Part shown: positions 9,801 through 52,400 of the stretch, one piece after another | Position numbering within the stretch: position 1 is the first letter of the stretch | Layout: each line of letters begins with the position of its first letter | Assembly (NCBI GenBank): GCA_000934665.2 | Contig: KZ538178.1 | Span: forward strand, 1 to 64,000 | DNA from: Catajapyx aquilonaris | Taxonomy: Eukaryota | DNA: 64,000 bases | Direction of reading: 5' to 3' | Notes under the pieces: model-generated | The model's input: the letters and a program-made list of their open reading frames with translations, nothing else | What the model was told of the DNA's origin: nothing | Databases searched by the model: none | Translations under genes and position numbers: made by a program

Positions 9801-10863
9801 CGATTGGTGTGGGCCCCCGATCAGAAGAGGCCGCGGCTTCCTCCTCCGTTCAAAGACAGGCAGTCAGCCAGACAAATCCAATGACAATCGATCTGCTCAG
9901 ACTCGGTTTAACTCCCAGCCCCTCTTAGTGCCTCCCCAACCACCACCACCCTCCTTCGGAATCAGACTTGTCACTTATCCTTTCCCTCCGAGCAATTCCA
10001 CTTTGCACTTTGTGACAACAACCCTTCCCTCCTTCCCTCCTTCCCTCCTTCCCTCCTTCCCCCCTCCTTCAGAAGTCTCTGACTCGATCACCACTCCCAG
10101 CAGTTTGATTTTGTCCCCCAATAGAGCCAACCTCTTACGCTACGTGAGTGTATACAGTTTGTTGCACTACAACAGCATCGTACCTGTTGACTCTATACTA
10201 TACACATGCACCCATTCATCCATTCATCCATTCATTCACATCCACCGGATTACACTGATACTTATCCCCTCACGACGTAAACTGCTGTATATACACAAAG
10301 AGATGTTTAATTAATCAAATGAAGAGACTTGGCTGAAGCGTAATTTGCAACGAATTTCACCTCATTGCGCAAAGAAATGGTTGCGAAACCATCTTTAGTG
10401 ACTAGAATCATGTAACTGTGGCAATTTGCGGTGTATAGACGTAAGACTTAAAATGATAGTGCTGCTGGATAAGACGAGGTCTGGCCGCCCGCTGCTGCTT
10501 GATGGGTGGGGGCATAGAGAGGGCCCAAGGTGAAAGTATAGTCGCCCAAAACAACTATCGATTTCCTTGTTACACGACTATTTTTAGACCTCCTCCTCCT
10601 CCTTTCTTCCGATATGTCAAAGCTAAGCCTATCTCCGTGCACTATTTATTACTCGCGTATGGAGTGTGTTGCGGATCGACGGATCCGGTTTGGTGGCCAT
10701 CCTCTCCAGTATACATAGAGGGGAACTAAATAATCCGACGAGCTGCACGCGAATCACTATGTCAGAATATAAGTTGTCATTGCTGAGCGTGTTGTGTGAC
10801 ATCTCTCTCTGCTGTCAAAATGCACGATTTGACTGACCCTACAGTACCCCCATTCTATAGCAG

Positions 10864-11917
<1,054 letters not shown>

Positions 11918-15583: not shown

Positions 15584-18500
15584 TCAGTCCCTGAGGTCAG
15601 TCCTGAGTGACCTGAAGAGGGCCCGCGCAGATTGGTCTGCGGTGTCGAAGTGGGCGTCGAGGGCGCCCCCTCGTCCGTCGTCGCTGGCGTCGTCCACGGA
15701 TGAGGGCACCTCCATTAGGGCTGGAAGCAGCGGTGGAGTCGGAAGGGTGCTGTGCTGAGGCTGGTAGACGCTGCTGGGGGTCATCATGGTCACCACCATC
15801 CTCTTCTGCTGCTGCTGTCCGGGTCGCAGGGGGAAGGGCCCGGGGTCAGAGGGCGCTGCCCCCATCATGACCTTCTCCTCCATCCCTCCCCTCCTCCTCC
15901 TCCTGTGCAGGTAGATGCAGAGGAGGCAGACGGACACCACGCACACCTGGAAGAGCGTGCCGGCCACGATGGCGGCCACCAGTACCTCTCGGGTCGTGCA
16001 GAAAAGGTCATCCAGCTCCCGAAGGCCTGTTGTATATGCAAATAGGGTACGAGTGACAAAGTGGGCTTGGAGGGAGCGGGACGAGAGGAGGAGACTCACT
16101 GGTGACGTCGTGGTGAGACACACCTCCGTTGGGCAGGTCAGCCAGGACCACCACATCGTTTACTATTATCTCCTTCTGAAGTGGGGTCTCTCCGTACACC
16201 ACCTGCTGGAAATTACCTGGCTCGTCCTCCTCCTCCTCCTCATCGACATTGGAGGTGACGTTGGAGGAAATCTCTCGACGTCGACGCCTACCGTACGAGT
16301 CCCCAAAATCACACCTGGCCTGCAAACAGGAATGGGAAATAGGAAGAGGAGAAGAAAGAAGGCTTTACATTATGGATGTGACGGTCCATTGCAACTGGAT
16401 CAATGCAGGCCTACCACCATCCTGCATCACCCATTTCACTTCACATCAATCAATCAATCAGTACCAATTAAACTGTCAAAGCCTTGGGAAATTAGTGCAT
16501 TGTATATTCTTCATGCATATTGCCGGTGGATTACGAGTAAAAGAGAATCCTGGCTCCATCGTCTGGGCGTCGTCGGGAGTACGCATACCGTGTGCACCTC
16601 GTATGTAACAACAAGTACACTATACGTACGTACCGGGAGGCAGTCCTGGAGGCAGAACTGGACGTCGAGCTGGAACCTGACGACGGCGTCGTCGGAGAAT
16701 CGGAAGGCCTCGAAGGATCCTTCGAGGCTCTTGGTCCCAGGGATCTGGACCAGCCCTGGGAAGACCGACGGGTCGGTGGGGCAGCCCCTCTGATCCAAAA
16801 GGGTCACCGACTCAGTGTTGGCTCCACTTCGGGCCACCAGGTTGCGGGCGAAGATGCCGTAGATGCCTGGATGATGAGGGATGGTGGGGGGTCACATAAT
16901 AAAATGATTGTGCTGCTGCTGGGTCGATTGACTCACTCTCGTCGTCGATCTCGATCCTGAGCAGCAAGGGCTGCCCCAGGGTGGCCCCCACCACCTCCAC
17001 CCCGCTCCTGTCCAGGATGCGCATCCGGATGTTGGGCGCCGCAGCCGTCGAGTTCACCACCGACGTCGGGATCTCAGCCCTTCCCGCACTTCATTACAAT
17101 CAAACAATGCAAACGTTACAGCCTGTGGTGTATCATACGAGTACTATACACAGCAGCAAGGATATATACTCACTCGACGACGAAGCTGAGGCTGCTGGTG
17201 AGTGTCCGGTTGGAGAGGTCGAACCTGCAGACCAGCCGAATGGCCTTGTCTCCTTTCCTCTGGACCACGGGGTGATGCTGGACCACCACCTATACACACG
17301 GACAAGGGTATATAATGAGCAAGAAGCAGGGGCCTTCTCCGGCTGACTCTGACCTGGTTTGTGTAGACGGCGTTTGGTTCCTCCTCGACACCCCCGCAGG
17401 CCCCGAGCAGGGGCAGCCTGAACTCCGTCTCGGAGTGACCCGTGCCCCTGGTCACGCACTCTGGCCTGCTCTGCGCGTATATCCGACCCAGGAATGGCTC
17501 CTTGGTGTGCAGCCGGAGGAGCATGCTGTCCTTGTTGCAACGGAGTTGAGCTAAACGGACCGTCGATCGTCGGGACAGAGGAAGAGTGCGTGGAAATGTG
17601 TCTCAAGCTATATAAAAAAAAGTTGCAACTGCTGGAATGGTTTTCATACCGTCCAGGCAGAGGTCCTTTTGCCCAAAGTAGCTTCCGGCCCGCCTGAAGA
17701 GTGCAGACCCCTGGATGCTGGTGACGTCGGCGCCGCTCAGCTGGCACTGCGACGCCGAAGGAATCCAGACGAAAGACCGGCAACGGAACGTCGGAGTCTC
17801 CTCGCATATGGCCTGGCACTTGATCCGATAAAAGGCAAGATTCACCAGTGTCAATTAGTAAAATGCTAAACTTAGAAGAGGTGACTGGTGGGGATTGCAC
17901 TGACCTCTTCCTGCGACCTGGCAGTCAGCTGCAGGTCCACGTAGGCGAACTCGTGGTCGTTGACTATTTCGTAGTCGCACGAGGAAGGCACGTCATCTGA
18001 TGAGCATTTGGAGGCAAAATGTGTGTAATTTATATCCCGTGGCTACGCAACCAGCATATCACTCCAGCAGTGTGAAGAGGTGGTTTCTTTTCCCACCCAC
18101 CCAGCACCCTTCCCATAATAATAACCAGAGTCGATTGTCATCAAGTATATCGTACCCGTGGCGCACTGGTTCTCCATGTAGTCTACATCAGGGGTGGTGG
18201 GCCTGAAGGCCAAAGGCTTGGACCTCCTGGTCTCCCTGCTCATCCTGCAGACCCCTCCCCCTGCGGACCAGAACTCTGCGGACCTGCAAGGGAGGCTCCT
18301 CTCCTGCAGGCACATCTCCTGGCACCTCTTCCTGCTCCCGATCCCCTGGACAATGAGGTCGTCGTGTCCCGCCAGCTCGTGTCCAGGAACCCTCTCGAAG
18401 GTCCAGGCCTTCCCGCACCCAGGGGCCCTCAGGCAGATCCTCTCGTAGTAGCTGGTCCTGCCAGGGGCCGGAACCAGCTGGTCCTCAGCACGGCCACTGC

Positions 18501-18976
18501 TGGAGCTGGTGCTGAATCGGAAGCAAGCGGACCTGTCGTAGTGGACCAGGAAGGCCGCGCAGCTCTGGGACGACCGACACCTGCTCGACACACACACACA
18601 GTTCGCAACTTATATATCGGGACCATTTAACGAGACAATGTCGCAATAATGATAGAGAGATGGCTCGAATGTAGTGAATGAGAGAGAGAGAGAGAGAAAC
18701 GGGACCTGTTGTTGCATTCTGCGGTGACGGGGCTTCCGACTGCGGAGTAGAGCGGGAACCGATGAGATGCGTGCGGAGATAACCCATTCACACGCTCGAA
18801 GCTCTCTGTACCGTCGCAACCTTGGCCTACACACACACCCGACAAAATTAGTGCACCGAGCAGCTTATATAGGGACATGGATCAGCAACTGCATTACCTG
18901 AGACGACGCTCCTGGTGCCGATGGTGGACATCCACAGCATGCAGATCAGTCCGCACCACATCAGGTCCATCATCAT
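15584..18976 (-). CDS. Type I membrane apical-ECM protein: signal peptide, 3 PAN/apple domains, ZP domain, furin site and TM helix (trynity/neyo/nompA/cuticlin-like family). Exons: 18898-18976, 18706-18826, 18156-18580, 17905-17996, 17650-17818, 17354-17550, 17174-17289, 16937-17088, 16634-16866, 16100-16319, 15584-16026 (~748 aa)
   Basis: Has an N-terminal hydrophobic leader, PAN-type motifs (CQEMCLQERSLPCRSAEF; CQAICEETPTFRCRSF), ZP motifs (LLDQRGCPTDPSVF; FEAFRFSDDAVVRFQLDVQFC), an RRRRR furin site, and a TM segment VLVAAIVAGTLFQVCVVSVCLLCIYL followed by basic residues. Eleven GT-AG-bounded exons join in frame (2247 nt). The exact orthologue cannot be assigned by eye. Confidence 0.88.
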
Positions 18977-26082: not shown

Positions 26083-29000
26083 TCAGATCCCCTCGACTTT
26101 GGTGACCACAGGTGCCAGGTGCTGTCTCTTGACCAGCTTCACAGTCCGGCCTGATGCTACTGACCTGTCGTTGTTGTTGTCCAAAAGCGTCGCTGTGGTG
26201 TACAGGTAGTTGCCCTGGATCGTAGATGTGGGGAGGGTCGCAAACTCGACAGTCCCAGACGCAGACAGAGTGACTGGGAGGGTGGTGATGTCAGAGGTTA
26301 TGTTGACCCCGAGGTCCAGCCGATCCTCACCCAAGTCCTCGTATACTCCATTTACCTAAATGCAAGCAAGACATCAGTCCATAACAAGGCTCGATGCAGG
26401 TCAATGAAGAATGCAATGTTCTCGTGCACTGGGATGCAGCCCATGTTGCATGCAAGAACCACATTCTACACAGCTTCAAATGAGCTACAAGGCAATAAAA
26501 ATTACTATGTACTCACCACCTGGTAGGAGCCTTCGTCATCGTCTTCAACATGCATGTGAAGGTCAGCAAGATTTCCCCCTTGCATAGCGCTGAACTGCTC
26601 TAGGCTGATGTACTCAGATGGCTCTGTCTTTATATGAGCAGTGGCAGGGATCTGGCAGGGAGGAGACGGGTCAGTAGGAGTGGTGGGTGGCTCACACTTG
26701 ATGTGAACTGTAGGGATTGATTCAGACGAGGAGGAGGACGACGACGACGACGACGACGAGCTGGATAAGGACGAGGACAAGGTTCCGTTGGTGGATGCCG
26801 AGGCAATGGACACTATGCATGGACCAGGTTGAAGGTTGCTGCTTCCGTTGACTGTTGAACTACAAAAGTGCGATGCCTGATGCAGGGTTGTGGAGGAAGT
26901 GGGGGGGACATTGGGTCCCCCGACTTCCAGGTCCTCGTCTTCACTCTCATCACACGAAACATTCAGGTTCACCTCACGCTTCATCTCTCCGCGCTCCAGC
27001 ATCTCCAGGTTGTCTACAACAAGTGAACCCAGCAGTTACTCACTGACCCTAATTCTGTCTAAACTCTACAGCATGCCTCATGACTCGGAGATTGGAGCAA
27101 ATAATAACTTCAATGCAAATGAAGGGCCAGTATCAGATTGGGAATCAACTAATATGAACTTCACAAGACCTTGGACTGTTTCTCTGGACAGACCAACGAA
27201 TTCAACCAAACCTTGTATTATTTCTGGGATGGACAGACTGTACAATACAAATCAGTAGGGAGTGGCACAAAGCTTCAATACACTTCAGAACGGTTGCACA
27301 TGCAAGGAGATCAATCGAGTGAGGTGAAATATTCCTACCTGGGCAGGCCATGGCCTTCCTGATGGCTGATGGATCCTTCCTGGACCACTTCTGCACCTCT
27401 TCGTCCATCTTGGACACCTTGGCTGGATTCATGGCCCACAGGCATCCCTTCCTCTGGCTCCCGTTCCCCGCAGGCTTCTCAATCTTCTCAAAGCACTTGT
27501 TAAGGCTCAGGTTGTGCCGCACAGAGTTCTTCCATCCGTTGGGTGCTGTCTTGAAGTACGGGAAGTGCTCACTGTTGGAGGAAGAAGGCACGCGATTAGA
27601 GCACTGCAATATGTAGGTAGTAGTGCTTAGGCGGTACACTTACAACCCGATGATGACTGATGTATGTAGGGGGGAGGGGGGGGGGCTAGAGGCTAGAGGC
27701 AGCCTCCCCCCCCCTCCCCCCAACTATTCCTTCCTTTGAAGGAGGAGGAGGTCCACTCCTCTCAAACACTGATCGCGAACTGAAGCCAAACGAAGGCAAA
27801 TCTGTGGCTTTCAAACCCTGCGAGCATCCCCCCCTCTGGTGACGTCCACATATTGCATAAAAGGGTCTCTCTCCCCCCATCCCCACCTGGCCACCCCAAC
27901 CCCCACCCGGTGATACAATTCATTCTATTGCTTCCTTCCTTCCTCTCCCTGGAAATAAAACTGGCCAGACCAGTTACCTCCCACCTGGACCCGGCAGATT
28001 TTTCTAATCTGGAAGAGCAGACCGTTAACCGTCCATCAACGGATTTTTAACGCAACAAAAGTGCAGGGGGAGGTCGGAAGTGGGAGGGGTGGATGGAAGG
28101 GGTGGTTAAATCCCCCCTCCCCACCTTATTCATCCTGCCCTCTTTTTTTTTCCGTCTCTTATTTCCACCCCCTGGCCATCCTAATGGTCTCGTGCCCTTG
28201 CACGTGGCCCAGAAAACAAGGCCAACAAAGTACACACCCACCCCCGTATACAGAATGGTCTTGATTGACCACCACCCCTCACAACCACAGGATCGATCAA
28301 ATAATTGCAAATCATGCCTGGTACATCATCAGCCTTTGGATTATTTTTTTTAAAAATGTTTCCTTTTTTTACCATCGAGTGTACAGCACCTGGAAACCCC
28401 CTCGAAAGAGACGGTTACAAACCCCCATCGAGCGAGGAGGGCTCTTTTACCAGATTCGTTTTTAACCACCACTTCCCCCTCCCCACCTCCCCTCCTTTTC
28501 CTTTAAACTCCGCTTTTCCCACGGCTTTGTGAAAGGAGGAGCCCGTTTTCTCATCGCTCAACACACAAAACGTACTCCCCCCTTTTTTTTAAAACAGGGA
28601 GAAGGGGGGTGAAGCAGTTTTGAATCTTCACCGTTGGACCCAGACTAATTAAGCCTGGAACCCACAGTTGGCTAATAAGTATCCCCACACGTACGGTCCC
28701 AGTCTCTTTAAATCGAGATCTACTTATTATTCTCAACCGCCATTTAAAAAGTACGCTTTGCACCGGATTGCAATTTAAATTGTCCTTAGTTAAGACACTT
28801 CCCGGACTATAAGCGGCTCGCTATTCATCGGCTAATATTCGAGGTACAAAACTAATATTACTTCCCAAAAGTAGGTAGAATGTGGACCATTGCTACCAGC
28901 TGGTAAAACCCGTGACCTCTAATGGATCATCAGTTCTTTTCAATTCCCGAGCCCCAGACAATGCTTCCATCCAACAAAACGTAATTCTTCAAAAATAATC

Positions 29001-32000: not shown

Positions 32001-35000
32001 TGGGCCCGGCTGCCTGGCAGACGGTCAGTCAGTCAGCCAGTCCGTCGCCCACCAAGCCTAAGGGCAAGGCAGGCTTCCTTGGCTAACCAAAATCCTACGG
32101 TGAATTCCTCCTCCCCCAGACCCCGTGCCCTACTTTAACAACAGAAAGAAAAAAGCAACAACAAAAATGTCGAGTCGAGGTGTGATGACACAAGCCCTGC
32201 CCCCTGAAGACTCGACAATGTCAGCTACCGTTGAAGGGAGGGATGGAGGTCAAGGCCAGCATGTGTGGTCTCAGGTGGGTGGGGCGGTCAGCATCGCACA
32301 CCTCACCGGCCATTTGAATAAAACCCTATACGCGCCACTCGCAGCTCGAAGGGATCCGTCCCACTGACTGACTGACTGACTCTTTAAAGGTAATCCTCTT
32401 GTTTCCAACATGTCTCCAGGGATGACCCCCATGGAAACCCGCGACGCCATCACAAAGCTCCATTCCCCCGCTACGGGCACACAAAAACTGGTTTCAGACG
32501 AAACAATACTGAACATTCCAGAGCTATGTGGCTCACTCTGGGCGTGCACAAGGACTGCCGGACGGATAAATTCCAGAGGAGAGTTACATCATCAGATACT
32601 TCTGGTGCCTTATTGGGAAATGAACTACACATACAATGTGTGGAGTTGACGCGGAAAATGCGATATAAAGTGGTGAGGGGCAAGTTAAATGTATACAGTA
32701 TGGAGTTTGTCCACATACGTTATAACAGCAAACTCCAAAGTGAATCTTTACTCATATACAGCCGGCACATCAGATAAACCATCGGAAGCAGCAACGTTTT
32801 CCTTCCACACCCGATTCGTACCGCGGTTTTTAACTAGTTTAGATCCTCTTCTCTAAGATAATGTGGCTGAATTTCCAAGGCAGGCATACGGAGTTCATAA
32901 CATAATCGAATTCTGGAATGTACTGATGGAATGAACCACGTACCGGCTATGCCTAAATCAATGTTGCTGGGAGATGATCAATAAGTACAATTCATAGCAA
33001 ATTAAAGGCCCACAACTGAGATCGCCACGTGGAAGTACGAGCGTATATATACGGTGTAATCAATTTCTCCGCGTTCTCTCGAGACATCTGCACATCGCCC
33101 ACCTGAAAGCAAGTAGCGCAATCGGGGAACACAACGGATATTATACCAGGGCTATACAGCCAATTGTGCAGAATATCTCGAGATTTTCCTAATGTGAAAT
33201 TTGCGGATGAGTCACGTCTGTGTACGGCACCCGCCCCTGGAGCCAGCACGTGGCCGGTCCGCCCCCACCCGCCCCTTCCCTCCATTACTACAACACACTG
33301 TCTGGCACACATGTGCTTCGGGAGAGGCACCCACCCGCCCCTGTTGCCAACTGCCCCTGCCCGCCCAATGTCCCTGCCCATGTACGTGGCAACACTGGCC
33401 TCAGGGTCGAGCCCTCCCCAGCAGTCGCTTGAATCCTTCCTTCGCGTGCCACACACGCCACACAATCATATCACTATAGTTGTTGTAGTACCCTACACAC
33501 CCCCCTCCCAGCCCCTCGTCGACGTCACCCCAGGCCTCTGGAGAGGGGATGAGGCGGGTTCAAGAGTATATAGGAAAAGGGGGGTATGGCAGTCGTACTA
33601 AGGCCGACAGAGGGAGAGTGAAAGAGGGGGGGTTACATGCCTGCCTGCCGCTGCGCTTTCCGATTGGGGACGGACGGGGAGGGAGAGGTGAAGGCCCTGT
33701 TTACAAACACCACCACGTGACCTACGTTCATCACGTGACCACACATATTGGCGGACCAGACAAGGACAAACATTATTACCCTGTCACTGGACACCACCTG
33801 CTCAGGGCACGGGCTCATTTTAAATCAAAACGCCAGCAGAGAGGAAGGAAATAAATTGGCCCATACCCTGATCATGCACTGAAAATGAGCACTGCAAGCA
33901 TGCTGAATGCACTACCCCCCTCACACACGTCCTGAACAATGGCAGGGCACTATTGCACCTCAACGTAGGTGCACTTGTCACAAAACAGGTGCAGGCTTTT
34001 AAAATAAAAAAAGAGACCAAGCAAGCCAACTTGTTCTACACGTGGAATGCGAAAGCGTGTACTCACCACATGAAGCTGTAGATCTCCGAGACGGGTAGGC
34101 TCCCCGTCTTGCTGTTCTTGAGCGCCATTGCAATCAGGCACGAGTAGGAGTACGCAGGCTTCGGGTACGACCTGACCTCACCGTCCTTCCCACCTAGTCC
34201 ATTCAGGTCTATACACGATCCATTCGCACCAACCAAACCACTGTTGCTGCCACCGTTAGCCATGGATAGAGTGGAGGTAGACATGCTGCCGCCACTGCTG
34301 CTGGCCACCATGGCGGCTGTGAGGCAGTTGGCCGGCGCTGTGGACGCACTCACTGTCACCAGCTCCTGCTTGATCTTGCGGCTCTGCTGCTGCGTCTGGA
34401 ACACTCGTGCAAAGTTGGTCTGCGCTGTGGCTGGCACTGTCTTCAGGGTCAGTCTGGTTGCTGTTGGAATGGACCCCAGCCCATTTGACGCCTTGGCTAT
34501 CAGAGCAACAGTTGTCGGGGTGAAGGACACTTCACGGTGGTTGGCCAGCAGGGTCACCACATCGCCCTTCAACCCTCTGCTCCCAGTCACCGTCGTGGTT
34601 GTCATGGAGGTTTCTGTGGTGCTGTTTGTGAGCTTGGATGGCTGGCTGGCTGGCACCAGAGCGACTGGCATGATTTGCGAGGGGTCCACCATGACTCCAG
34701 GTGCCATGTCAAAGTCCATGAAGGAATTCGATGCATGACCATTACACGTGGAATTGCTCAATGGTGCTCCCGAGTTCAGCCAGAGGCCCAGATCCCCCGA
34801 TGGATCGTCATCACCACTTCCCATGACATCCAAACCGTTGGTGCCCTCCAGAGGGTCGAGGGAGTCCAGGTCAAATCCAGGCAGGTTGTGCTCCATGCCC
34901 AGATCCATTGTCAGGTCGCCAGAGGCCAAGACATGCTCAATTTCACTCTTCATGTCGCAGTCCAGCATATCCTGAATGGAGAATGGCAGCGAGTCCTGTC

Positions 35001-35019
35001 CCGGAACGTAAAGATCCAT
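26083..35019 (-). CDS. FoxN1/4: Forkhead box N1/4 (jumeau-like) transcription factor; exons 34067-35019, 27339-27571, 26517-27013, 26083-26355 (~651 aa)
   Basis: The forkhead domain [65 protein letters not shown]...RKGCLW is typical of FoxN1/4 and is split by a 6.5 kb phase-2 intron. Phases are consistent (1956 nt). The start ATG at 35019 is inferred. Confidence 0.93.
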
Positions 35020-35749
35020 CGCCTCGCCAGGTGGAGTTGCAGGGCAAATGGATTGAGGGAAGTGCACGCCAAGTGCTATCCACTGCACATCAGGGGCACG
35101 GTCAAATCACGGCTGAAAGCAGAAACCAAAATGCTGTTAGTTCAATGCAACAAGTTTCATTTTACTTGAAACATGCATCAAAATGTGACAATCTTGATCA
35201 CGCAAGTCAAATGCGATATAATAAATGTTTAAAATTGGGTTCATGCAGTGTTTACAAGCTACCACTGCAATGAAGAATGGCATGAATTAACACTTTTCCC
35301 TGTGAACAATAACACATACTATCTGCCAAATATTATTGCTGACAAACATCATTTCCTGCTGCTCATTCCTCACACAGAAAGTGAGGAATGTGCCAGGCAG
35401 TGACAGTCACATGATGCACTAAACAACATTTCTTGTACATATTCGGCCAAGAGCAACAAGAACGACACGCTTAGGATCAGAAAAACACAGTTGAGAGGCT
35501 TAAATGCCCCACAAATTCCACCTCTTGTTGGCAGTTATATTTTTCAACGTGTTATTATGATGAAATGGTTATTTCCAACACTGCCATCAAGATGATTTGA
35601 AAATATCGCACAATTACGTATGACCCCACTGCCAAATTATCTGCTGCATTATTGTTATGATTACTAATATTGTTAGTCCCATTCCACTTGGCTGGTTTGT
35701 CAAATGCACCCCCAGTTTAATGTGGGAAGTAGTGAACCCCTATGGATTT

Positions 35750-37450
35750 CCATAAATTCCGGGTTCTCGCCTGATATTTCGTTCCCTGGTATCCGTTGGC
35801 CCCGGGTGTGACCCGCCCGCCCCGGTTGGAAAGAGCGGTGCAGACCCCATGTCGAGGGCAGCTCCCTCTATCGGGCCCCCCCCCTCCCAGAGGATCCGAA
35901 TCTCCCGCGCCCGCCTTTTCCTGGCGAGCCAATCATGGCCGCCCGGGAAAAGGAAACCTAGGCCTAGCTCGAGCACCACACCAAACCAAGCCTCCTTCGC
36001 GGCCCCTGCTCCCCGCCCCTGGGCCGCCCCTGCAGTCCTCGCCCCTCTCCGCCCTCCCGCTCCCTTCCCCGCCACCCGGCCCCGGGGCCGCCCCCCACCC
36101 CATCATCGCGGCCCCATCCCTTGCGCGCCAAAACCGCCCGGCCAACAAACCCGGTATCGATTTTCCCCGGCTCCTAATCCCGGACCCTCTGCCCTGCCCC
36201 GGGTAAAGCCCGCCTCACACCCGCACCATCACACTCACCTCCTTTGGGCACACCGCAGTTTTTTAAAACGCCCGGCGCACACACCGAACCGTCGTCGCAC
36301 AATTGTCTTTTTAAAAAATACAAAAAAAATGATTGCAAAAAAAAAAACAAAATATGTCCGTTGGGCACTGCACGATGGATCGTTCACCACGTCCACTGCG
36401 TGTGTCCTTCCGATGCGTTGGGTACACGGTGCAGGTCCTGGTACCGTCAGTGCCCGTCGCGTGTAGTACGTACCCCCTTAGTTGTGGTGCCTGTGCCTCG
36501 CTGCCTGCCCTCCCCTGCCCCAGCAGCACCACACCAGACCACACAAAGGCAACGGGCGAATTTGAAAACCGGGCCTCCCCATTGGCTAAGGACGGTCACG
36601 TGGGGATGGATCCGGACAGGGGATTGGCTCCCTGGCGGCCATCATGATTTTGCCCCCCCCCCCACCCAACTCCCCTTCCCCCCCCCCTCTTCCTCCACCG
36701 CCGTTTTCCACCCACCCACCCCCCTAGCCCCCCTCCTTGTCTATTCCGCCCGTTTTTAATACCCGCCAAAATCCCCCCCCATCGAACAATGCATTGGCCC
36801 CGGGGCCGCCCCTGCCCTGAGGGTGCCTCCCCAGGCCAACATGGGGTCAGGGGGGCCCCCGACAGGGGTTGGAAAACATGGTCGGCGGAACCCGCTTCCA
36901 ACATGGCGCCCTCTCCCTCCCGAGAGGGGGGAGACTGAAATTCGAACTGAAATTGCGCGCCGTCACCAAAGGGCGGGGTCGGAGCCGGGGCGGACCAGGG
37001 GCCACTCTTTTTTAAATATTTCATGTTAAAATGTGGGGTCGGAGCATGGGTTCGGCCCCTGGGGTTGCGACGAGGGATCCGCGGCGGAGGCGGGAAATGA
37101 GGAAACATGGCGCCCTCTTGTTCTTGGCGGGAGCAATGGAGGCGCCGGAGGGGGGCTGAACAAAACAATAATATTCCGGCGAGTACGGGCCTGGATCTTT
37201 GTTTTGGCCCAGGGAAATCGGGTGGTACGCGCATTTTTATGCGTAGCAGGCATGCGACATGTACAGTATGTAAGTACGCAATTTTCATGGCCATGCCATT
37301 TTCAGTCTTTTGTTCGATTTTCCAGGGGACTTTGACCGTTTGGAGGGAGGGGGGGGGATGGCCTATCCCCCTCCCCCATGTCCTTGGTGGAGGTTCGCAG
37401 GGGAGGCGGCAGGAGGCGCTGGTAGACACCCACAACCTGTGAGGTTCGGA
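35750..37450. promoter_or_regulatory. GC/CpG-rich divergent promoter region between FoxN1/4 and IRAK4/Tube
   Basis: Visibly GC- and CpG-rich. Contains CCAAT boxes (~35929, ~36581, ~36793), GGGCGG boxes and an identical 15-mer AACATGGCGCCCTCT at 36900 and 37104. A minus-strand AG|gtgagt donor at 36238 fits a non-coding FoxN first exon. Confidence 0.6.
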
Positions 37451-37540
37451 TCCATGCGGACAGGTGGCACCACTGGGTTGGCCGTGGGTGGGACGAGACA
37501 AGTGAGGAGCGGCGGCCGTCTAATATTTTGCTTCAGCAGC

Positions 37541-39243
37541 ATGTTGTTGTCCAAGGGCGAGGGTGGGGCCGTTCAGCCCGGGTGCGAAGTGCGGCACCTG
37601 CCACAGAGGGTGGTCAACCAGCTCTGTCGCATCCTGGACGTCGCCTCCTCCTGGAAGACACTCATGGGGGCAGTCACCGACCACGACAGGAGGATCAAGT
37701 ACACTTCCGATGATGTCCGGTAAATGTGGCCATCACTGCGGCATGGTCGCGTCAACTCGTATTTTGCTATCCTTCCCACAGGCTGGTGGAAGAGGCCAGT
37801 GTCCGCATGTCGAGATCACCCACGTCCATCTTCCTGAATGAGTGGGGCACCAGCGGACGCAAGCGTCCGACGGCCTCCACCCTGCTGTCCATCTTGTCTC
37901 AACTGGAGCTTTTCCGGGCATCAGACTACCTCTCTCAAGAGGTCCTGGGTCTGGGTCCTGCCCCAAGGCCTCTGACCGGTCCTTCCGCTCCTGTCGACAC
38001 TTCCATTGACCTAAGGATCATTGGTGATGGCAGTCCGTCCAGGGTTTCTTACGATTATCTCTGCACCTTGACAGATGACTTCTCAGATGTCCCTGTGAGG
38101 AAGGGTGGACGACTGCTGGGATCAGGAGCATTTGGCTCTGTCCATCTGGGAATACTGCCTTCCGGTGAGAGAGTGGCAGTCAAGAAGCTCTTTCAGACGG
38201 ATGCAAGTCAAGATAGGAACTTCCAAAGCGAGGTGGATGCTCTGTCCAGATTCCATCACGAAAACATTGTTCCACTTCTGGGCTACTCGGACAGTGGCAT
38301 CAACTGGTGCTTAGTGTATGCCTTCATGCCTGGTGGATCCCTCCAGGACCGGTTGTCATGTCTGGATGCCCTTCCACCTCTCACCTGGCGGCAGCGCATA
38401 CGAATTGCATCGGGGACTGCTAAAGGGTTGGCGCACCTCCACGTTGGAAGCCTTGTCCACCGAGATGTCAAAAGCGCCAACGTCCTTCTCAATGCGGATG
38501 GTGAGGCACACATTGGTGACTTTGGTCTAGCCAGGACAGGCCCCAGGGGTCAGTCAACAGCCACAGCACTGGCCTCAACCGTGTTTGGGACATCTGCTTA
38601 CATGGCCCCTGAGGCTTTCAGAGGGGATGTCTCCGCCAAGATGGATGTCTTCAGTTATGGAGTGGTCAGTAATCAAATGGCTAACACAACAAGAAAATGA
38701 CAGCACCTTACACTTTATTATTTTTCCCCAGGTTTTACTTGAGATTTTGACTGGCTTACTGCCGTATGATGAGAACAGAGACGGATGTGATTTGGTAAGT
38801 CCTCGCATGTAGAGGGACACCATTCATCAATTTTCCATCAGCCATGTTACCACCCACATCTTCAAGTGGTGTTGAAGAGATGCTGTCAGGTTAAGAGGCT
38901 TAAAATTGCATCATTCCAACTCCACTTGTGATGCAGGGAATGCCAAAGCTGGCAGCTCGGATGGATGGTGCACCAAACTGTTTGCATGCATTATTAGCAA
39001 AGTGAATGACTTTCTCACTTTCTGCAGGTGACCCACGTAGAGGAAGTCTGTCCAGATGGAGCAAGCATTGTCCCACTGCTGGACTCCAAGGCTGGCGACT
39101 GGCCTCAGGAAGCTTTCACAGTCTTGTTCTCCACCTCCCAGAAGTGTCTCGAGGAGAAGAAAACAAGGCCAACAATGGAGCAGGTTCTAGGAGACCTGGC
39201 AGCCCTGGACGACATTGTTCACCGCATGAGCAGCGTTGCCTGA
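37541..39243 (+). CDS. IRAK4: IRAK4/Tube-like death-domain Ser/Thr kinase; exons 37541-37719, 37782-38664, 38732-38794, 39028-39243 (446 aa)
   Basis: Has a Tube-type death domain (EWGTSGRKRPT...LELFRASDYL) and kinase motifs GSGAFGSV, VAVKK, gatekeeper Tyr (CLVY), HRDVKSAN, DFG and YMAPE. The RD catalytic loop favours IRAK4/Tube-like over Pelle. Splices in frame (1341 nt). Confidence 0.9.
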
Positions 39244-40948
39244 GCATATGCCCCAAGGAACACAAATCCTCCCATGGAGATCCACGTGACTCGAGGGACC
39301 ACCCCAGCAAACACCCTGGAAAAACATTTGTTATTGTACAGTCGAGTTAAATAATAATAATTAATTGGTTACCATACAATAGGCACAGTCTGATTTTTCA
39401 CTAATCACAAGGGCTGCTGTGGGAGGAAACCCACACAAATATGGAGAGAACCCAGTGAAACTCATTCCTGAGGAGAAATCTCTGTCAAACTCAGGATCCC
39501 AGAGGCGGAAGGCTGTGGCACTAAACAATACCCCTACACACAGTAATGAACGTCCTATGCATTTACCCTCTGAGTCCATCATTTTTGTACACTCGTTGCA
39601 ACACTGCTACCAGGTTTCCAGATGCATCTGGGGTTCCTTTTGCTGCCAGCATCGTCCTGGTCTTGGCCACGTCAATTGGAGTAGTTGCTCCTGCTGCAAC
39701 TGCACCTGAAATTGTTGGAAATTCTTAGCAACATGTGACATTACCACTGCCTGGTTCTTGTCCAGCCTCTCATAGCAGGATGAGGCCCCTGTACCTTTGA
39801 TGAGCAAACAGATCTGAGACTTGTTCAAATAGGGTTTTACTGCCCAATGTGTGTTAAGGGTGTGGAAAAAGATGGGGTTGCACTTGCTCTGTATTGACTG
39901 AAATTATGCATAGTGTATCATAGAGCATGGATAAAGTGCGTTTTGCATGGGGCTCATTACCAGCAATGGCCCCACAGATGGCTGACTTGAGCGGAGAGAT
40001 TGTGTCCCCTTCTCCTCCCCAAGTCCTCTTGAGTCCCTCCCAGAGCGGGAACTGTATGATGGAGAAAGGTAGTTCCCTGGCCATTGTTGTCCAGTAGCCC
40101 CTGTAGAGGCCCCTCCAGCCCTCCTGGGCCAAGATGGCTCTCAGAACCCTGTAGCTCTGCCAGCTTCCACCGGACGACATAACCTGAGTCTGGCGCCTCT
40201 GCTTCACCACCTCTGTTGGAACCCGCACTGTGCATGCTGCCTGCAAAGAGAAGGGTTGTACCCTGACTTGCTCTCATGAGAGGCAAGTGACCAGCATTAC
40301 CACTTCCCCGCAGGCAGCGGCCAGCATGTGAACAGCAGGTTGCTCCCACTGCTGCTGCGTTGCCAGCATCTGCTTGACCCCCTCGTAGGTGCAGAAGAAG
40401 AGGGCAGCTGATAGGTTAGAGAGAATTAATTAGCATTAGACGGAGCTGTGACATGGCAGGGCGCAGTAGCTACCGTTTGGTGCAGAGCCGAGAGCAGCAG
40501 GGCCGATCCCCTTGTAGAGGTGCCTGAATCCCCCTGCCCTCCAGAAGCCCTGCTGGCTCTGCAGGCGAGTCTTGACCGTGTCCAGGGGGAAGAGGGAGAC
40601 GTCCACCACCATCCCTGCAACGGCACCAGCCTTTTTGACAAGGAAAGAAAGCAGGCAATAAGTGCTTCGCAGCCTCGGAACATGAGCGTCCTGGCAGTGT
40701 GCATGCCGATGGACTGCAGGAAGTGTGTGAAGATCTGGTAGGCATGACGATTAGTGATGACTTGGTTGTAAGCAAGGTCGCAGTGAGAAGGACATGTGGT
40801 TGCTGAACAGAGAGAGTGTGTCCGTGTGTGTTGCGTTGGTGGTACCCACCATGAGTGGTGCTAGGATGGTGGGTCCTTCTTCCACATCATCGCAGTCCTC
40901 GCAGCCCTCCTCCTCCTCCTCCTCCTCATTGTAGTTGTGTTGGTCCAT
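39219..40948 (-). CDS. SLC25A26: Mitochondrial S-adenosylmethionine carrier; exons 40850-40948, 40474-40630, 40301-40407, 39961-40240, 39567-39705, 39219-39315 (292 aa)
   Basis: Three carrier signature motifs ([30 protein letters not shown]), the SAM-carrier-like [18 protein letters not shown], and a terminal [23 protein letters not shown]. Six GT-AG-bounded exons join in frame (879 nt). Confidence 0.92.
39418..39537 (-). mobile_element. Degenerate tRNA-derived SINE (V-SINE-like) in SLC25A26 intron 5
   Basis: Plus strand reads TGTGGGAGGAAACCCACACAAATATGGAGAGAAC...AAACTC followed by a decayed reverse tRNA-like head. Related to the fragment at 61596. Family assignment is from recalled consensus. 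Confidence 0.5.
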
Positions 40949-41744: not shown

Positions 41745-42304
41745 AACCCTATGGCAATGGTGTATGCATATGGGGGGTGGGGAGTTCAAACATGTTTTAA
41801 ACGACTCCCAGACACTCTGCACTGTGCACTCTGTAGTACAACTGGTACAAGTATAAGTACATTTAAACTCTGCGAATCGGCCAGAACGTTGAAACGCTCA
41901 CTCTATTTAGTGTAACTGCATAATAAGAGGAGAAAATAACCTTCATATCAGTGTCCTCTGTGAGAATGAGTGTAACTGCATAATAAGAGGAGAAAATAAC
42001 CTTCATATCAGTGTCCTCTGTGAGAATGCCTTACTCCGTTTCGCCCTGCGTATACACTAAATGCGTCTGAGGAGCAACTCAAAGGACTTTCCTAAACTGC
42101 GGTACCAATTGGCAGCATGCCTCATTGAACATAAGCCTACATGACATTCCCAGGACACAATTATTGAACAAGTGAGTATGGAGAAGAGATGCGTATTATA
42201 TACCCCAGCAATCGATGTCAAGAGCAGAAACGGCTCATACAGTATATAATAATAATTATTGTACTCGTATATGTGTCCCTGATTGCCGAAAATGTAAGGG
42301 TTAA
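41745..42304 (+). mobile_element. Degenerate piggyBac-like transposase 3' remnant
   Basis: Frameshifted fragments KP..., HMGG, WYKY, NAHSI and LRYQLAACLIE occur in the order expected for a piggyBac C-terminal region. The segment ends in AGGG followed by TTAA (42297-42304). Confidence 0.4.
41909..42028. repeat. Perfect 60-bp tandem duplication (2 copies)
   Basis: 41909-41968 is identical to 41969-42028. Confidence 0.95.
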
Positions 42305-43384: not shown

Positions 43385-43394
43385 AATAATAATA

Positions 43395-43451
<57 letters not shown>
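43385..43451. repeat. (AAT)n microsatellite
   Basis: Read directly. Confidence 0.95.
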
Positions 43452-49400: not shown

Positions 49401-52400
49401 TGACGTGAAAGTTTTGAAAGTGTAGTATAGTAGCAGACATGGACAGTTCTCATGTCCAAACTTCCCAGCCCGGTCACGCAATACACCCAGACACACTACT
49501 TTTGTAATAGTTGAGAAAATCCGATGGAAACCTGGGAGAAAAAGGAAAGGAAGGGGGAAAAAAAGCTTCACTGACAGATCTCCGATGTATATACATGCAG
49601 CGTTGACGGCCAACCAAAATAAAGAAAAAAGTGCCTCTATATAGTCATGTGCCGTGTACAGCAGCAGCGAGGAATAAGGCCGCCTTACGTAACACGCGGA
49701 TATCGAACATGCTTCCATAACACATTGAAAATGCGAGGCGGGGGGGGGGGGGGGGGGGGANCTTGGGAGGCGTGATTCATAATTTTCTAGTAACATGAAA
49801 GGGATGAAAAATTGAAGGAGAATGGCCGCAGGCTGGTATAGGTCACGGTTCCTGGAACTTTGTCTTGTCTTTTCACGTTCGATAAAGTGACATCAGTGGA
49901 GGGCGAAGCAGCAGGGAATAAAGGAAACAATGCTGTTCGTGTACTACGGGTTTATTTCAAACGTGTTTCATCGCTGGCATCGCTCATGCCTATATAGGCA
50001 GCTCAGACATTTATGGCTGCTGTAAATAATTATGTGGCTCGTAACTAGTCCACGGGCAATATGCTGCGTATCATAAGCCATCCATATACAGGATCATTTA
50101 AAAATAATCAAACAATAATGAATGTGTATGGCCATATGCACTGAAAAGTGTTTCATATCGTGGGAAAAAACAACGTGAACACCTAAGGCAATAATCACAT
50201 TATGTGGCCTGTTACGGCCTGAACACTTTTAAACACTTTTAAATAAAATCTTGGGCTATAGATGGCAATAGGACAAGACATGCGATTTGTTGTCCTGCGT
50301 GGCAGTATTTATTCAGGCAAATGCACCATCACAGCTGTATAGTAGAGCCTTATGTAGTACAGTACGTGATATACATGTCTATATACATGATGGTGTGCTT
50401 TCCCCTCCTGACTTTAGACGGTGGTGTTCATGGACCCGTCCCAGTACCAGTGCTCGATAATAAACCCGATGGACGCCACGGCTCCTCCGAAGACCTTCTC
50501 CTTCGACGGCGTGTACTTCATGGACTCGACGACGGAGCAGATCTACAACGAGATCGCGTACCCTCTGGTGGAAGGCGTGCTGGAAGGGTACAACGGCACC
50601 GTGTTCGCCTACGGGCAGACCGGGTGCGGGAAGAGCTTCAGCATGCAGGGGGTGCAGAACCCGACCACCCAGAGGGGGATCATCCCGAGGGCCTTCGAGC
50701 ACATCTTCGAGGCCATCGCCACAGCGGAAGACATCAAGTTCCTCGTGCACGCCTCGTACCTCGAAATATACAACGAGGAGATACGGGACCTGCTCGGGAA
50801 GGACGCCAAGAAGAAGCTCGATCTGAAAGAGCATCCGGAGAAAGGGGTCTACGTCTCTGGTACTGCTGTGTACTCGTTATACATATCTTGTATACATCGT
50901 TATAATCATCGTGTCTGCCGAGGCTGACCTGCTGTGTCCTGATGTTTCTATCTTATTCCGTTCAATTATCCATAGATCTGAGCCAGCACCCGGTGCACAA
51001 CGTGGCCGAGTGCGAGATGCTGATGGACCGTGGGTGGCGGAACCGGGCGGTGGGGGCCACCCTGATGAACGCCGATTCCTCCAGGTCTCACTCCATCTTC
51101 ACCATCAACCTGGAGAACATGCACATGTCCCCGGAAGGAGACGACCAGCACATACGGAAAGGGAAGCTCAACCTTGTCGATCTGGCCGGAAGCGAGAGGC
51201 AAGCCAAGACAGGTACGTTGGCATACCACTCCTCATCACCTTAATAAATGTGTGACCTTTGACCCGCTGTGCAGGTGCGACAGGCGACAGACTGAAGGAG
51301 GCGACCAAGATCAACCTGTCCCTGTCTGCCCTGGGCAACGTGATATCGGCCCTGGTGGACGGCAAGTCCAAGCACATACCGTACCGGGACTCGAAGCTGA
51401 CCCGGCTGCTGCAGGACTCTCTGGGAGGAAACACCAAGACGCTGATGGTGGCCTGCGTCTCTCCGGCGGACAACAACTACGACGAGACCCTGAGCACCCT
51501 TCGGTACGCCAACAGGGCCAAGAACATCAAGAACAAGCCAAAGATCAACGAGGATCCAAAGGACGCGATGCTCAGGGAGTACCAGCAGGAGATACAGCAG
51601 CTGAAAGAAATGCTCGAGAAGCAGAAGGCGGCAGCCTTGGAGGCGCCTCCCGTAGAAACCATCACCACAGGTATATACTCACTGTACATATACGGTTAGT
51701 GGCCCTGCAATGACTCTATATATAATGTGTATATGTTCGTATAGTTGTACCGGATGAGCAGGCTCTGGAGGAGGAGAGGAAGAAGGTTCGCAGAGAGTTC
51801 GAGGCCCAGATGCGAGAGATGAAGGAGCAGTTCGAGGCGGAGAAGCTCAGCAGGTCCAAGCTCCAACAGGACATGCTGAAGCTCAAGGAGCACTACGAGG
51901 AGAAGATCAGCACCATCAGCGAGCAACCGGAGGTATATACGATACAGCAAATACATAGCCTCATTGTGCCAGGTATATACAGAATCCCTTAACGATGCAT
52001 TATTGTTTCAGGGTCCCAACCAGAAGGCTGCAGCTGAGGTGCCAAAGGGTGCCAAGGGTGCCAAAGGTGCTCCCATCACTGCTGCAGGTACCAGGACCGG
52101 AAGTGACGCAGCCAACAACGAGGCCACTCTCAGGTACGATATATGCAGGTCACGCAAAGCACGTGCTGACCCATGCATATTTAACCAACTGATTGGGCCC
52201 AACAGGTGATTAGATGGCATTTAGGGGGAGAGTACAGCAGACGGGAAGGGGGGACCCGCATTTTTATCTGCAACTGATGGGCTCAACCCTCTCCGGGTTG
52301 GCATAGGGTAGGGTTTACGGAAGCCGCCCCATTCATAATGGATGGACCCGGATAATGAGAAACCAGTCGCGTCACCACATGGGTTCATTACGAAGAGGAA

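What the first reader, a model, noticed from the sequence alone, without database searches (positions are those of the whole stretch)
39219..39243. Coding sequences of IRAK4/Tube kinase and SLC25A26 overlap tail-to-tail by 25 nt
Seen: the kinase last exon (+) ends ...GTT CAC CGC ATG AGC AGC GTT GCC TGA at 39243. The SAM-carrier last exon (-, acceptor at 39316, [31 protein letters not shown]) ends with TGA at 39219-39221. These 25 bases are therefore coding on both strands, with third codon positions coinciding. This exon is missing from the ORF track. Established: CDS-CDS antisense overlap between two conserved genes is rare in animals. Inference: each 3' UTR must run through the partner's last coding exon, forming an obligate cis-antisense pair that could couple Toll signalling to mitochondrial SAM import through dsRNA, editing or transcriptional collision.
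Basis: partly seen in the sequence, partly recalled or inferred. Interest (0 to 1): 0.8.

Follow-up and report, generated by a model that had tools for sequence, protein, structure and literature searches.

The report
Two facing genes share 25 bases
An immune-signalling kinase gene and a mitochondrial SAM-carrier gene on opposite strands really do end 25 bases inside each other, but this looks like an ordinary, if uncommon, case of two facing genes packed too closely, not a new regulatory device.

Summary
The + strand kinase frame ends with TGA at 39241-39243. The - strand carrier frame ends with TGA at 39221-39219. So 39219-39243 is coding on both strands, with third codon positions facing each other.

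Both genes look real and intact. One is a 446-aa IRAK4/Tube-like kinase with a death domain and all catalytic motifs. The other is a SAM carrier (SLC25A26) with three carrier repeats.

Spliced contigs from one public run confirm all three kinase introns. One contig matches 39027-39316 without a difference, so it crosses the overlap. The carrier's last exon rests on homology, in-frame GT..AG sites and the need for helix 6. No splice joint was seen for it.

Both C-terminal tails are unconserved and of ordinary length.

In four distant relatives' contigs the kinase has other neighbours.

I read this as a lineage-specific convergent sense-antisense pair with a short coding overlap, a known though uncommon kind. 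Coupling of Toll signalling to SAM import is untested speculation. Strand and 3' ends of the RNAs remain unknown.

The parts
37541..37719 (+). Kinase coding exon 1 (start ATG 37541; N-terminal part of the death domain)
   Evidence: ATG located. The donor agrees with RNA joint 37718|37781 (cut +1), GT..AG. The start codon itself is inferred.
37782..38664 (+). Kinase coding exon 2 (rest of the death domain, most of the kinase domain)
   Evidence: Pfam Pkinase E 4.1e-40 and Death_2 (Tube death domain) E 2.3e-9 on ORF 37714-38700. RNA joints on both sides. Motifs GSGAFG, VAVK, HRDVK, DFG, APE present.
38732..38794 (+). Kinase coding exon 3
   Evidence: RNA joints 38663|38731 and 38793|39027, both GT..AG (cut +1). 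tblastn to homologues.
39028..39243 (+). Kinase terminal coding exon (holds the RPTM motif near the kinase C-terminus, my label from recall; stop TGA 39241-39243)
   Evidence: Acceptor confirmed by an RNA joint. The frame stays open from the ATG: 1341 nt, 446 aa, a single terminal stop. Aligns to 7 of 9 homologues.
39219..39243 (.). The 25-nt stretch coding on both strands
   Evidence: Codon tables of both strands. Sequence.
39219..39315 (-). SAM-carrier terminal coding exon (last transmembrane helix; stop TGA 39221-39219)
   Evidence: Acceptor ttccag|G and in-frame junction. tblastn to 7 of 8 SAM-carrier homologues. RNA contig 4 ends exactly at 39316. No splice joint seen.
39567..39705 (-). 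SAM-carrier coding exon D (third carrier repeat, first half)
   Evidence: Pfam Mito_carr E 4.1e-9. GT..AG sites in frame. Reading through its donor gives GGG TAA, an immediate stop (sequence).
39961..40240 (-). SAM-carrier coding exon C (second carrier repeat)
   Evidence: Pfam Mito_carr E 2.6e-15. RNA contig 40057-40218, depth 2.7. Splice sites.
40301..40407 (-). SAM-carrier coding exon B
   Evidence: Splice sites and frame. Inside the long collinear tblastn HSPs (40675/40630 down to about 39905-39959), which read through the short introns between exons A, B and C.
40474..40630 (-). SAM-carrier coding exon A (first carrier repeat); its 5' boundary is inferred
   Evidence: Pfam Mito_carr E 1.4e-11. 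5 of 8 homologue alignments start exactly at 40630. Acceptor aaaaag|GCT.
40850..40948 (-). Candidate first coding exon of the SAM carrier (33 aa, acidic run, donor ATG|gtgggt); inferred only
   Evidence: No in-frame ATG lies upstream within the ORF that holds exon A. This exon's end fits the homologues' N-terminal pattern. No RNA support.
39350..39361 (+). Candidate poly(A) signals of the kinase (three overlapping AATAAT), inside the carrier's last intron
   Evidence: Hexamer scan. No AATAAA, ATTAAA or AATATA within 1 kb downstream of the stop. Inference only.
38714..38719 (-). Candidate poly(A) signal of the carrier (AATAAA on the - strand), antisense of the pyrimidine tract of kinase intron 2
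   Evidence: Hexamer scan. The sequence shows a GU/U-rich stretch just downstream on the - strand. A weaker AATAAT lies at 38995. Inference only.
39027..39316 (.). RNA contig (record 4, 290 nt, depth 42.1) crossing both stop codons
   Evidence: table 8: 0 other letters, 0 gaps. It has 192 nt to the left and 73 nt to the right of the overlap.

Best explanation
Two intact, conserved genes face each other: an IRAK4/Tube-like death-domain kinase on the + strand and the mitochondrial S-adenosylmethionine carrier SLC25A26 on the - strand. There is no intergenic DNA, and each stop codon lies 22 nt inside the other gene's reading frame.

The shared 25 nt encode only the last seven residues of each protein. 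These residues lie beyond the last conserved motif of each family. The two frames face each other at their third codon positions, so the overlap costs little.

Because every mRNA needs a 3' UTR, each transcript must run antisense through the partner's terminal coding exon. The locus is therefore an obligate 3' convergent sense-antisense (cis-NAT) pair. The only plausible poly(A) signals lie in the partner's introns.

I think it most likely arose as a lineage-specific by-product of close packing of two short genes. Any regulation would be of the generic cis-NAT kind (transcriptional interference, dsRNA or endo-siRNA), not a dedicated Toll-to-SAM link.

Shown: the sequence, the gene identities, the kinase splicing, and an RNA contig across the overlap. 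Inferred: use of the carrier's last exon, the poly(A) sites, the origin, and the absence of a dedicated function.
For: - **Overlap and phase:**
- **Gene identities:** Pfam Pkinase plus Death_2, and three ORFs with Mito_carr. Best relatives are named IRAK4-like, at 39-55% identity among the top 20 rows; 1136 proteins had E<=0.001 among 7040 candidates. For the carrier they are named S-adenosylmethionine mitochondrial carrier; 434 of 585 candidates had E<=0.001.
- **Full-length models:** my spliced models are collinear with homologues to within a few residues of both C-termini. All kinase motifs and three carrier signatures are present.
- **RNA:** joints confirm the three kinase introns, and contig 4 (39027-39316) matches perfectly.
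- **The carrier's last exon is needed:** without it, reading on past the previous exon's donor stops at once (GGG TAA), before the stretch that aligns with the homologues' last helix.
- **Tails are ordinary:** the kinase tail after RPxMxxV is 18 aa against a median of 14. Of 104 homologues carrying that anchor (120 were aligned), 93 are shorter, 3 equal and 8 longer. The carrier tail after F[LF]GxY is 8 aa against a median of 12. Of 110 with that anchor (120 aligned), 2 are shorter, 5 equal and 103 longer.
- **Tails are unconserved:** the alignment shows no conservation in them.
- **Adjacency not shared:** none of 80 metagenome loci with kinase relatives holds a carrier match. The four loci I chose as genomic-looking, with 0.75-7.3 kb downstream, show no Mito_carr among 55 ORFs.
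- **Literature:** convergent partial overlaps are the commonest class and mostly species-specific (PMC2330155, passages).
Against: - **No joint for the carrier's last intron.** No contig lies on 39317-40056, and contigs carry no strand. Use of the carrier's last exon and the direction of the RNA over the overlap are therefore not directly shown.
- **This region is not tightly packed.** One forkhead gene has an intron of about 6.4 kb, and I found about one recognisable gene per 8-9 kb. 'Genome compaction' alone does not explain why these two genes abut, which leaves room for selection.
- **No close relative's genome could be examined.** The best protein identities are about 55-60%. 'Lineage-specific' therefore rests on distant relatives only.
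- **The carrier's start codon is not settled**.
Confidence: 0.75

Rival explanations
1. The overlap is a selected regulatory device. Convergent transcription or the RNA duplex (endo-siRNA, editing, collision) couples expression of the Toll-pathway kinase to that of the mitochondrial SAM importer.
For: The antisense relation is obligate, because the coding overlap forces the UTRs to overlap. The surrounding region is not otherwise tightly packed. A precedent exists: 3' UTR-mediated regulation between two convergent coding genes, ppk29 and sei, in Drosophila (PMC3953951, abstract). Another is the 371 3' convergent siRNA loci found in Drosophila cell lines (PMC4079977, passages).
Against: I have no data on strand, small RNAs, editing or co-expression. 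[quoted passage not shown] The adjacency is absent in the four distant relatives' contigs. The overlapped residues are unconserved tails. A full-text search for IRAK4 together with SLC25A26 gave 2 papers. Going by their titles, the start of their abstracts and the one or two mentions counted, neither is about such a gene pair; I did not open them.
Confidence: 0.1
2. Gene-model artefact: the carrier normally ends in another exon or the copy is a decaying pseudogene, so in practice only one coding sequence uses 39219-39243.
For: No splice joint for 39566|39315 and no contig on the carrier's last two introns or on exon D. Carrier depth is low, 2.7 on one 162-nt contig. The start codon is unresolved.
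Against: Five exons with canonical GT..AG sites, in frame, with no internal stop. 53-60% identity over 253-258 aa to seven SAM carriers. Three intact carrier signatures. The last exon aligns with the stretch that forms the homologues' last helix, and no other match to that region was found in the window. RNA contig 4 stops exactly at the base where spliced and genomic sequence would diverge, which is what a graph branch at a used acceptor would give. That last point is an inference from how such assemblers behave, from recall.
Confidence: 0.07
3. Local misassembly or sequencing error created the overlap, for example a collapsed intergenic segment or a lost stop.
For: None found. The window comes from a single assembly that I could not inspect; no genome is held for it.
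Against: A contig from a public run that shows spliced joints matches 39027-39316 with 0 other letters and 0 gaps, spanning both stops. Both tails have ordinary lengths.
Confidence: 0.02

Closest known systems
3' convergent cis-natural antisense pairs of protein-coding genes in arthropods (3'-cis-NAT loci of Drosophila; ppk29/sei)
   Same: Two coding genes on opposite strands whose transcripts overlap at their 3' ends. The RNAs could pair, be diced or interfere with each other (PMC4079977, passages; PMC3953951, abstract).
   Different: There the overlap is between 3' UTRs. Here the stop codons themselves lie past each other, so the overlap does not depend on poly(A) site choice. No small-RNA or functional evidence exists for this locus.
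Opposite-strand gene pairs with overlapping coding exons in human and mouse
   Same: Conserved protein-coding genes sharing coding bases on opposite strands. This is a documented minority class: 51 of 615 human and 28 of 497 mouse opposite-strand pairs (PMC2335118, passages). It is counter-selected relative to UTR overlaps (PMC2330155, passages).
   Different: Different genes and a different lineage. The IRAK4-like/SLC25A26 pairing appears in no paper found by my one search. The conservation of this pair is unknown.
Short convergent coding overlaps of prokaryotes that share third codon positions
   Same: Same geometry: tail-to-tail, a length of 1 modulo 3, third positions facing. One preprint calls this phase 2 (10.1101/2025.11.07.687268, passages).
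   Different: Those occur in intron-less, densely packed genomes. Here both genes are spliced, and the likely poly(A) signals sit in the partner's introns.

Membership tests
IRAK4 / Tube-like kinase | N-terminal death domain of the Tube/IRAK4 type | tested here: met
   Pfam Death_2 (Tube death domain) E 2.3e-9, 37.8 bits against a cut-off of 25, on ORF 37714-38700. Exon 1 supplies the N-terminal part.
IRAK4 / Tube-like kinase | Ser/Thr kinase domain with intact catalytic motifs | tested here: met
   Pkinase E 4.1e-40. GSGAFG, VAVK, HRDVK, DFG, APE and RPTM found in the spliced model.
IRAK4 / Tube-like kinase | Closest relatives are IRAK4/Tube orthologues rather than Pelle/IRAK1 | tested here: inconclusive
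   The top named hits are all 'IRAK4-like', and one is named 'tube'. I built no tree against Pelle/IRAK1.
SLC25A26 (mitochondrial SAM carrier) | Three tandem mitochondrial-carrier repeats with the P-x-[DE]-x-x-[KR] signature | tested here: met
   Mito_carr hits on three - strand ORFs. PLDTVK, PTEVVK and PIDVAK in the spliced model.
SLC25A26 (mitochondrial SAM carrier) | Closest relatives are SAM carriers, over the full length | tested here: met
   The best hits are named S-adenosylmethionine mitochondrial carrier. 53-60% identity over 253-258 of 259 modelled residues.
SLC25A26 (mitochondrial SAM carrier) | SAM/SAH exchange activity | not testable with these tools
   Needs a transport assay.
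3' convergent cis-NAT pair | Convergent genes on opposite strands whose mature transcripts share sequence | tested here: met
   The stop codons lie 22 nt past each other, so any complete mRNA of either gene covers partner coding sequence. An RNA contig spans 39027-39316. The strand of that contig is unknown.
3' convergent cis-NAT pair | Both transcripts present in the same cells | not testable with these tools
   One run of unknown tissue holds contigs from both genes. Nothing finer is available.
3' convergent cis-NAT pair | Small RNAs, editing or reciprocal regulation from the overlap | not tested
   No small-RNA or stranded data could be reached.

The most novel reading that the evidence does not exclude
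The overlap is kept by selection. Each gene then terminates on a poly(A) signal hidden in the other's intron (the antisense of that intron's pyrimidine tract). Induction of the Toll-pathway kinase would necessarily send polymerase and antisense RNA through the last exon of the SAM importer, and the reverse. Innate-immune activation would thereby be tied to mitochondrial methylation capacity.
Probability: 0.06. Interest if true: 0.6.

Novelty: new member of a known kind. Interest (0 to 1): 0.2.

Why it matters
If the pair merely abuts, it is one more example of a known minority class of animal gene overlap. It is mainly a caution for annotators: ORF tracks and gene callers that forbid coding overlap would truncate or miss the carrier's 97-nt last exon. 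If the overlap proved conserved and regulatory, it would give a clean natural case where antisense coupling cannot be escaped by alternative polyadenylation, linking an immune kinase to mitochondrial one-carbon supply. Nothing here shows that.

Tried and rejected
- **Run search:** no RNA holder was listed. The one holder, X1, has unknown kind, but its contigs show GT..AG joints.
- **Gaps in X1:** no contig lies on 39317-40056 or on most carrier exons. This is a gap in cover, not evidence. One search also listed no other letters, no loose ends and no start or end pile-ups. Contigs drop rare variants, so this says nothing on editing or poly(A) sites.
- **Whole genome of the window:** not held. 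Paralogues and the genome-wide frequency of such overlaps could not be measured.
- **Earlier notes of this scan:** none for this genome by place or by sequence.
- **Conservation test:** one scan of metagenome contigs with a kinase alignment matched 602 stretches, of which 416 were relatives and 80 were kept. The carrier model found no match in any of the 80 at E<=1e-4. With 121 carrier queries at E<=1 there were 89 weak pieces, best E 0.003, none in L001, L002, L007 or L018. These relatives share only 31-57% identity, so this is a weak test.
- **Pfam on the two terminal exons alone:** no hit, because they are too short.
- **Carrier start codon:** the ATG just upstream of exon A is in another frame. 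I considered an assembly indel there and dropped it in favour of an upstream exon. Neither is proven.
- **Depth argument:** contig 4 has depth 42, against 15 plus 5 entering from the left. I considered this as proof that both mRNAs cover the overlap and rejected it. 3' bias of the kinase alone could give the same figures.

Full report
**1. The observation**

Reading 38600-39800 and listing stop-to-stop frames shows a + frame, 39010-39243, ending ...[11 protein letters not shown]. It also shows a - frame, 39219-39368, ending ...[13 protein letters not shown].

The codon tables place the kinase stop TGA at 39241-39243 and the carrier stop TGA at 39221-39219. So 39219-39243 (25 nt) is read on both strands, seven sense codons and the stop of each gene.

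Third codon positions coincide (39219, 39222 ... 39243), and position 1 of one gene faces position 2 of the other. One preprint calls this geometry phase 2 of convergent overlaps (10.1101/2025.11.07.687268, passages). The only nuance is that the carrier's acceptor AG is at 39317-39316, so the exon starts at 39315.

**2. What the two genes are**

- **Pfam:** Pkinase (E 4.1e-40) and the Tube death domain Death_2 (E 2.3e-9) lie on the large + strand ORF 37714-38700. Mito_carr lies on three - strand ORFs.
- **Kinase relatives:** a search with the kinase ORF gave 1136 proteins at E<=0.001 among 7040 candidates. The best rows are named IRAK4-like, mostly from crustaceans and insects, at 39-55% identity among the top 20. 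One row is named tube.
- **Carrier relatives:** a search with a carrier ORF, restricted to longer proteins, gave 434 of 585 candidates at E<=0.001. The best rows are named S-adenosylmethionine mitochondrial carrier, from Daphnia, an amphipod and shrimps.
- **Source organism:** no hit was close enough to come from the same or a sister species. It is an invertebrate whose nearest sampled relatives for these proteins are pancrustacean arthropods. I did not try to name it.

**3. Gene models**

I ran tblastn with 9 kinase and 8 carrier homologues, inspected splice sites and used the RNA joints.

*Kinase.*
- Exons are 37541-37719, 37782-38664, 38732-38794 and 39028-39243.
- That is 1341 nt and 446 aa, with one terminal stop.
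- The motifs GSGAFG, VAVK, HRDVK, DFG, APE and RPTM are all present.

*Carrier (- strand).*
- Exons are 40630-40474, 40407-40301, 40240-39961, 39705-39567 and 39315-39219.
- All have GT..AG sites and are in frame.
- Together they give 259 aa with three P-x-[DE]-x-x-[KR] signatures.

*Carrier start codon.* It is not in the ORF that holds exon A. A 99-nt exon at 40948-40850 (33 aa, donor ATG|gtgggt) fits the N-terminal pattern of the homologues. It is inferred only.

*Fit to homologues.* blastp of the models against seven homologues each shows collinear alignments. They reach model residue 432-440 of 446 for the kinase and 253-258 of 259 for the carrier.

**4. RNA evidence**

One public run, X1, holds the region. 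Its kind is not on record. Its contigs skip 37719/20-37781, 38664/5-38731 and 38794/5-39027 with GT..AG ends, so it is RNA-derived. All six laid contigs are at least 99% alike to the window.

- The three kinase introns are confirmed, including the acceptor of the terminal exon.
- Contig 4 (290 nt, depth 42.1) lies on 39027-39316 with no differences. It crosses both stops, with 192 nt to the left and 73 nt to the right. That argues against a local misassembly. It also shows that RNA from at least one of the genes covers the partner's whole terminal coding exon.
- Contig 4 starts at the kinase acceptor, where a spliced contig (depth 15) and an unspliced contig (38767-39056, depth 5.3) join it. 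It ends at 39316. That is the last base before spliced carrier mRNA and genomic sequence would diverge. I read this as a graph branch at a used acceptor, with both low-depth continuations trimmed. This rests on my recollection of how such assemblers clip tips and is only a hint.
- The carrier itself is represented by a single contig, 40057-40218, depth 2.7.
- Contigs carry no strand and no ends, so neither 3' end is known.

**5. Why both terminal exons are obligatory**

The kinase's last exon holds the RPTM motif near the kinase C-terminus (my label for it, from recall) and aligns to 7 of 9 homologues.

The carrier's last exon aligns with the stretch that forms the homologues' last helix (...[19 protein letters not shown]...) and matches 7 of 8 homologues. 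The eighth, P0137, has a divergent C-terminus. If the preceding donor is not used, the frame reads GGG TAA and stops at once (sequence). No other match to either C-terminal region was found in the window.

**6. The overlapped residues are free tails**

In alignments of 120 homologues each, I measured tail length after the last conserved motif.

| Gene | Anchor motif | Window tail | Median | With anchor (of 120) | Shorter | Equal | Longer |
|---|---|---|---|---|---|---|---|
| Kinase | RPxMxxV | 18 aa | 14 | 104 | 93 | 3 | 8 |
| Carrier | F[LF]GxY | 8 aa | 12 | 110 | 2 | 5 | 103 |

Neither tail is abnormal, and the tails show no conservation across homologues. The overlap therefore falls where both proteins tolerate almost any sequence, and in the phase where degenerate positions face each other.

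**7. 3' ends (inference)**

No AATAAA, ATTAAA or AATATA lies within 1 kb downstream of the kinase stop. Three overlapping AATAAT sit at 39350-39361, inside the carrier's last intron.

On the - strand the first AATAAA is at 38719-38714, 500 nt past the carrier stop. It is the antisense of the pyrimidine tract of kinase intron 2 and is followed by a GU/U-rich stretch. A weaker AATAAT lies at 38995.

If these signals are used, the carrier's 3' UTR would run antisense through kinase exon 4, intron 3 and exon 3. The unspliced contig over intron 3 would fit this, though it fits intron retention equally well. The kinase's 3' UTR would cover the carrier's whole last exon.

**8. Surroundings and conservation**

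Pfam scans of all 217 stop-to-stop ORFs of 85 aa or more outside the two genes found:
- a Ras-family GTPase (+, 10861-11784);
- a PAN domain (-, 18046-18609);
- a forkhead gene split by about 6.4 kb (-, 34066-35106 and 27205-27639);
- a kinesin motor (+, 50418-51696);
- Yju2 (-, 61647-62777).

The region is thus not uniformly compact. These two short-intron genes are packed more tightly than their neighbours.

No genome is held for the window. A scan of metagenome contigs with a kinase alignment kept 80 loci. None holds a carrier match. I picked four loci that look genomic and have 0.75-7.3 kb downstream of the kinase. In L018 the downstream genes include a convergent HAT-repeat Syf1/CRNKL1-like gene. 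In L007 there is a convergent cyclin. None of the 55 ORFs scanned has Mito_carr. These relatives are distant (31-57% identity), so this only shows that the adjacency is not ancient.

**9. Comparison with what is known**

- Convergent partial overlaps are the commonest overlap class in human, mouse and fly. Coding/coding overlaps are strongly under-represented, and overlaps are mostly species-specific (PMC2330155, passages).
- Only 51 of 615 human and 28 of 497 mouse opposite-strand pairs share coding exons (PMC2335118, passages).
- In Drosophila the dominant endogenous cis-NAT siRNA class comes from convergent 3' UTR overlaps, but bidirectional transcription does not guarantee siRNAs (PMC4079977, passages).
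- One convergent coding pair, ppk29/sei, is regulated through the 3' UTR (PMC3953951, abstract).
- A search for IRAK4 together with SLC25A26 found 2 papers. By their titles, abstract openings and the one or two mentions counted, neither is about such a gene pair; I did not open them.
- Earlier notes of this scan on other genomes judged abutting convergent genes ordinary. I did not test those.

**10. Verdict**

The overlap is real. Both genes look functional, and the antisense relation of their mRNAs is unavoidable. It is a new member of a known kind: a 3' convergent cis-NAT pair with a short coding overlap.

The proposed link between Toll signalling and SAM import has no support beyond the geometry. 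Stranded RNA data and close relatives' genomes would decide use of the carrier's last exon, the 3' ends and conservation.

Noticed in passing
window 38714-38719 (-) and 39350-39361 (+): The only plausible poly(A) hexamers for each gene lie in the partner's introns. Each is the antisense of that intron's T-rich 3' tract, a cheap way for convergent spliced genes to terminate inside each other.
   Followed up: partly
window 38767-39056: An RNA contig (depth 5.3) runs unspliced through kinase intron 3, while the two shorter introns show only spliced contigs. It could be intron retention or the carrier's long 3' UTR; the strand is unknown.
   Followed up: partly
window 40631-40948 (-): The SAM carrier has no in-frame ATG before its first carrier repeat. 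A candidate 33-aa first exon with a run of glutamates (40948-40850) would supply it. An out-of-frame ATG lies just upstream of exon A.
   Followed up: partly
window 27205-27639 and 34066-35106 (-): A forkhead-domain gene is split by an intron of about 6.4 kb, in contrast to the 62-255 nt introns of the kinase and the carrier.
   Followed up: no
window 41909-42028: A perfect tandem duplication of a 60-nt unit (2.0 copies, 100% match), about 1 kb upstream of the carrier's candidate start. An (AAT)22 microsatellite lies at 43385-43451.
   Followed up: no
window 36001-38000: The most G+C-rich block of the window (61%) lies upstream of and over the kinase start. It holds a 307-codon low-complexity open frame on the - strand (36599-37519) with no Pfam match.
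   Followed up: no
window 10861-11784 (+), 18046-18609 (-), 50418-51696 (+), 61647-62777 (-): Other recognisable genes in the window: a Ras-family GTPase, a PAN-domain protein, a kinesin motor and a Yju2/Saf4 splicing factor.
   Followed up: no
L007 9809-11461 and 11950-12530: In a distant relative's metagenome contig, a death-domain kinase sits in a single 551-codon ORF. A convergent cyclin gene's C-terminal ORF begins about 0.5 kb from its end. Close convergent neighbours of this kinase therefore occur elsewhere, with other partners.
   Followed up: no
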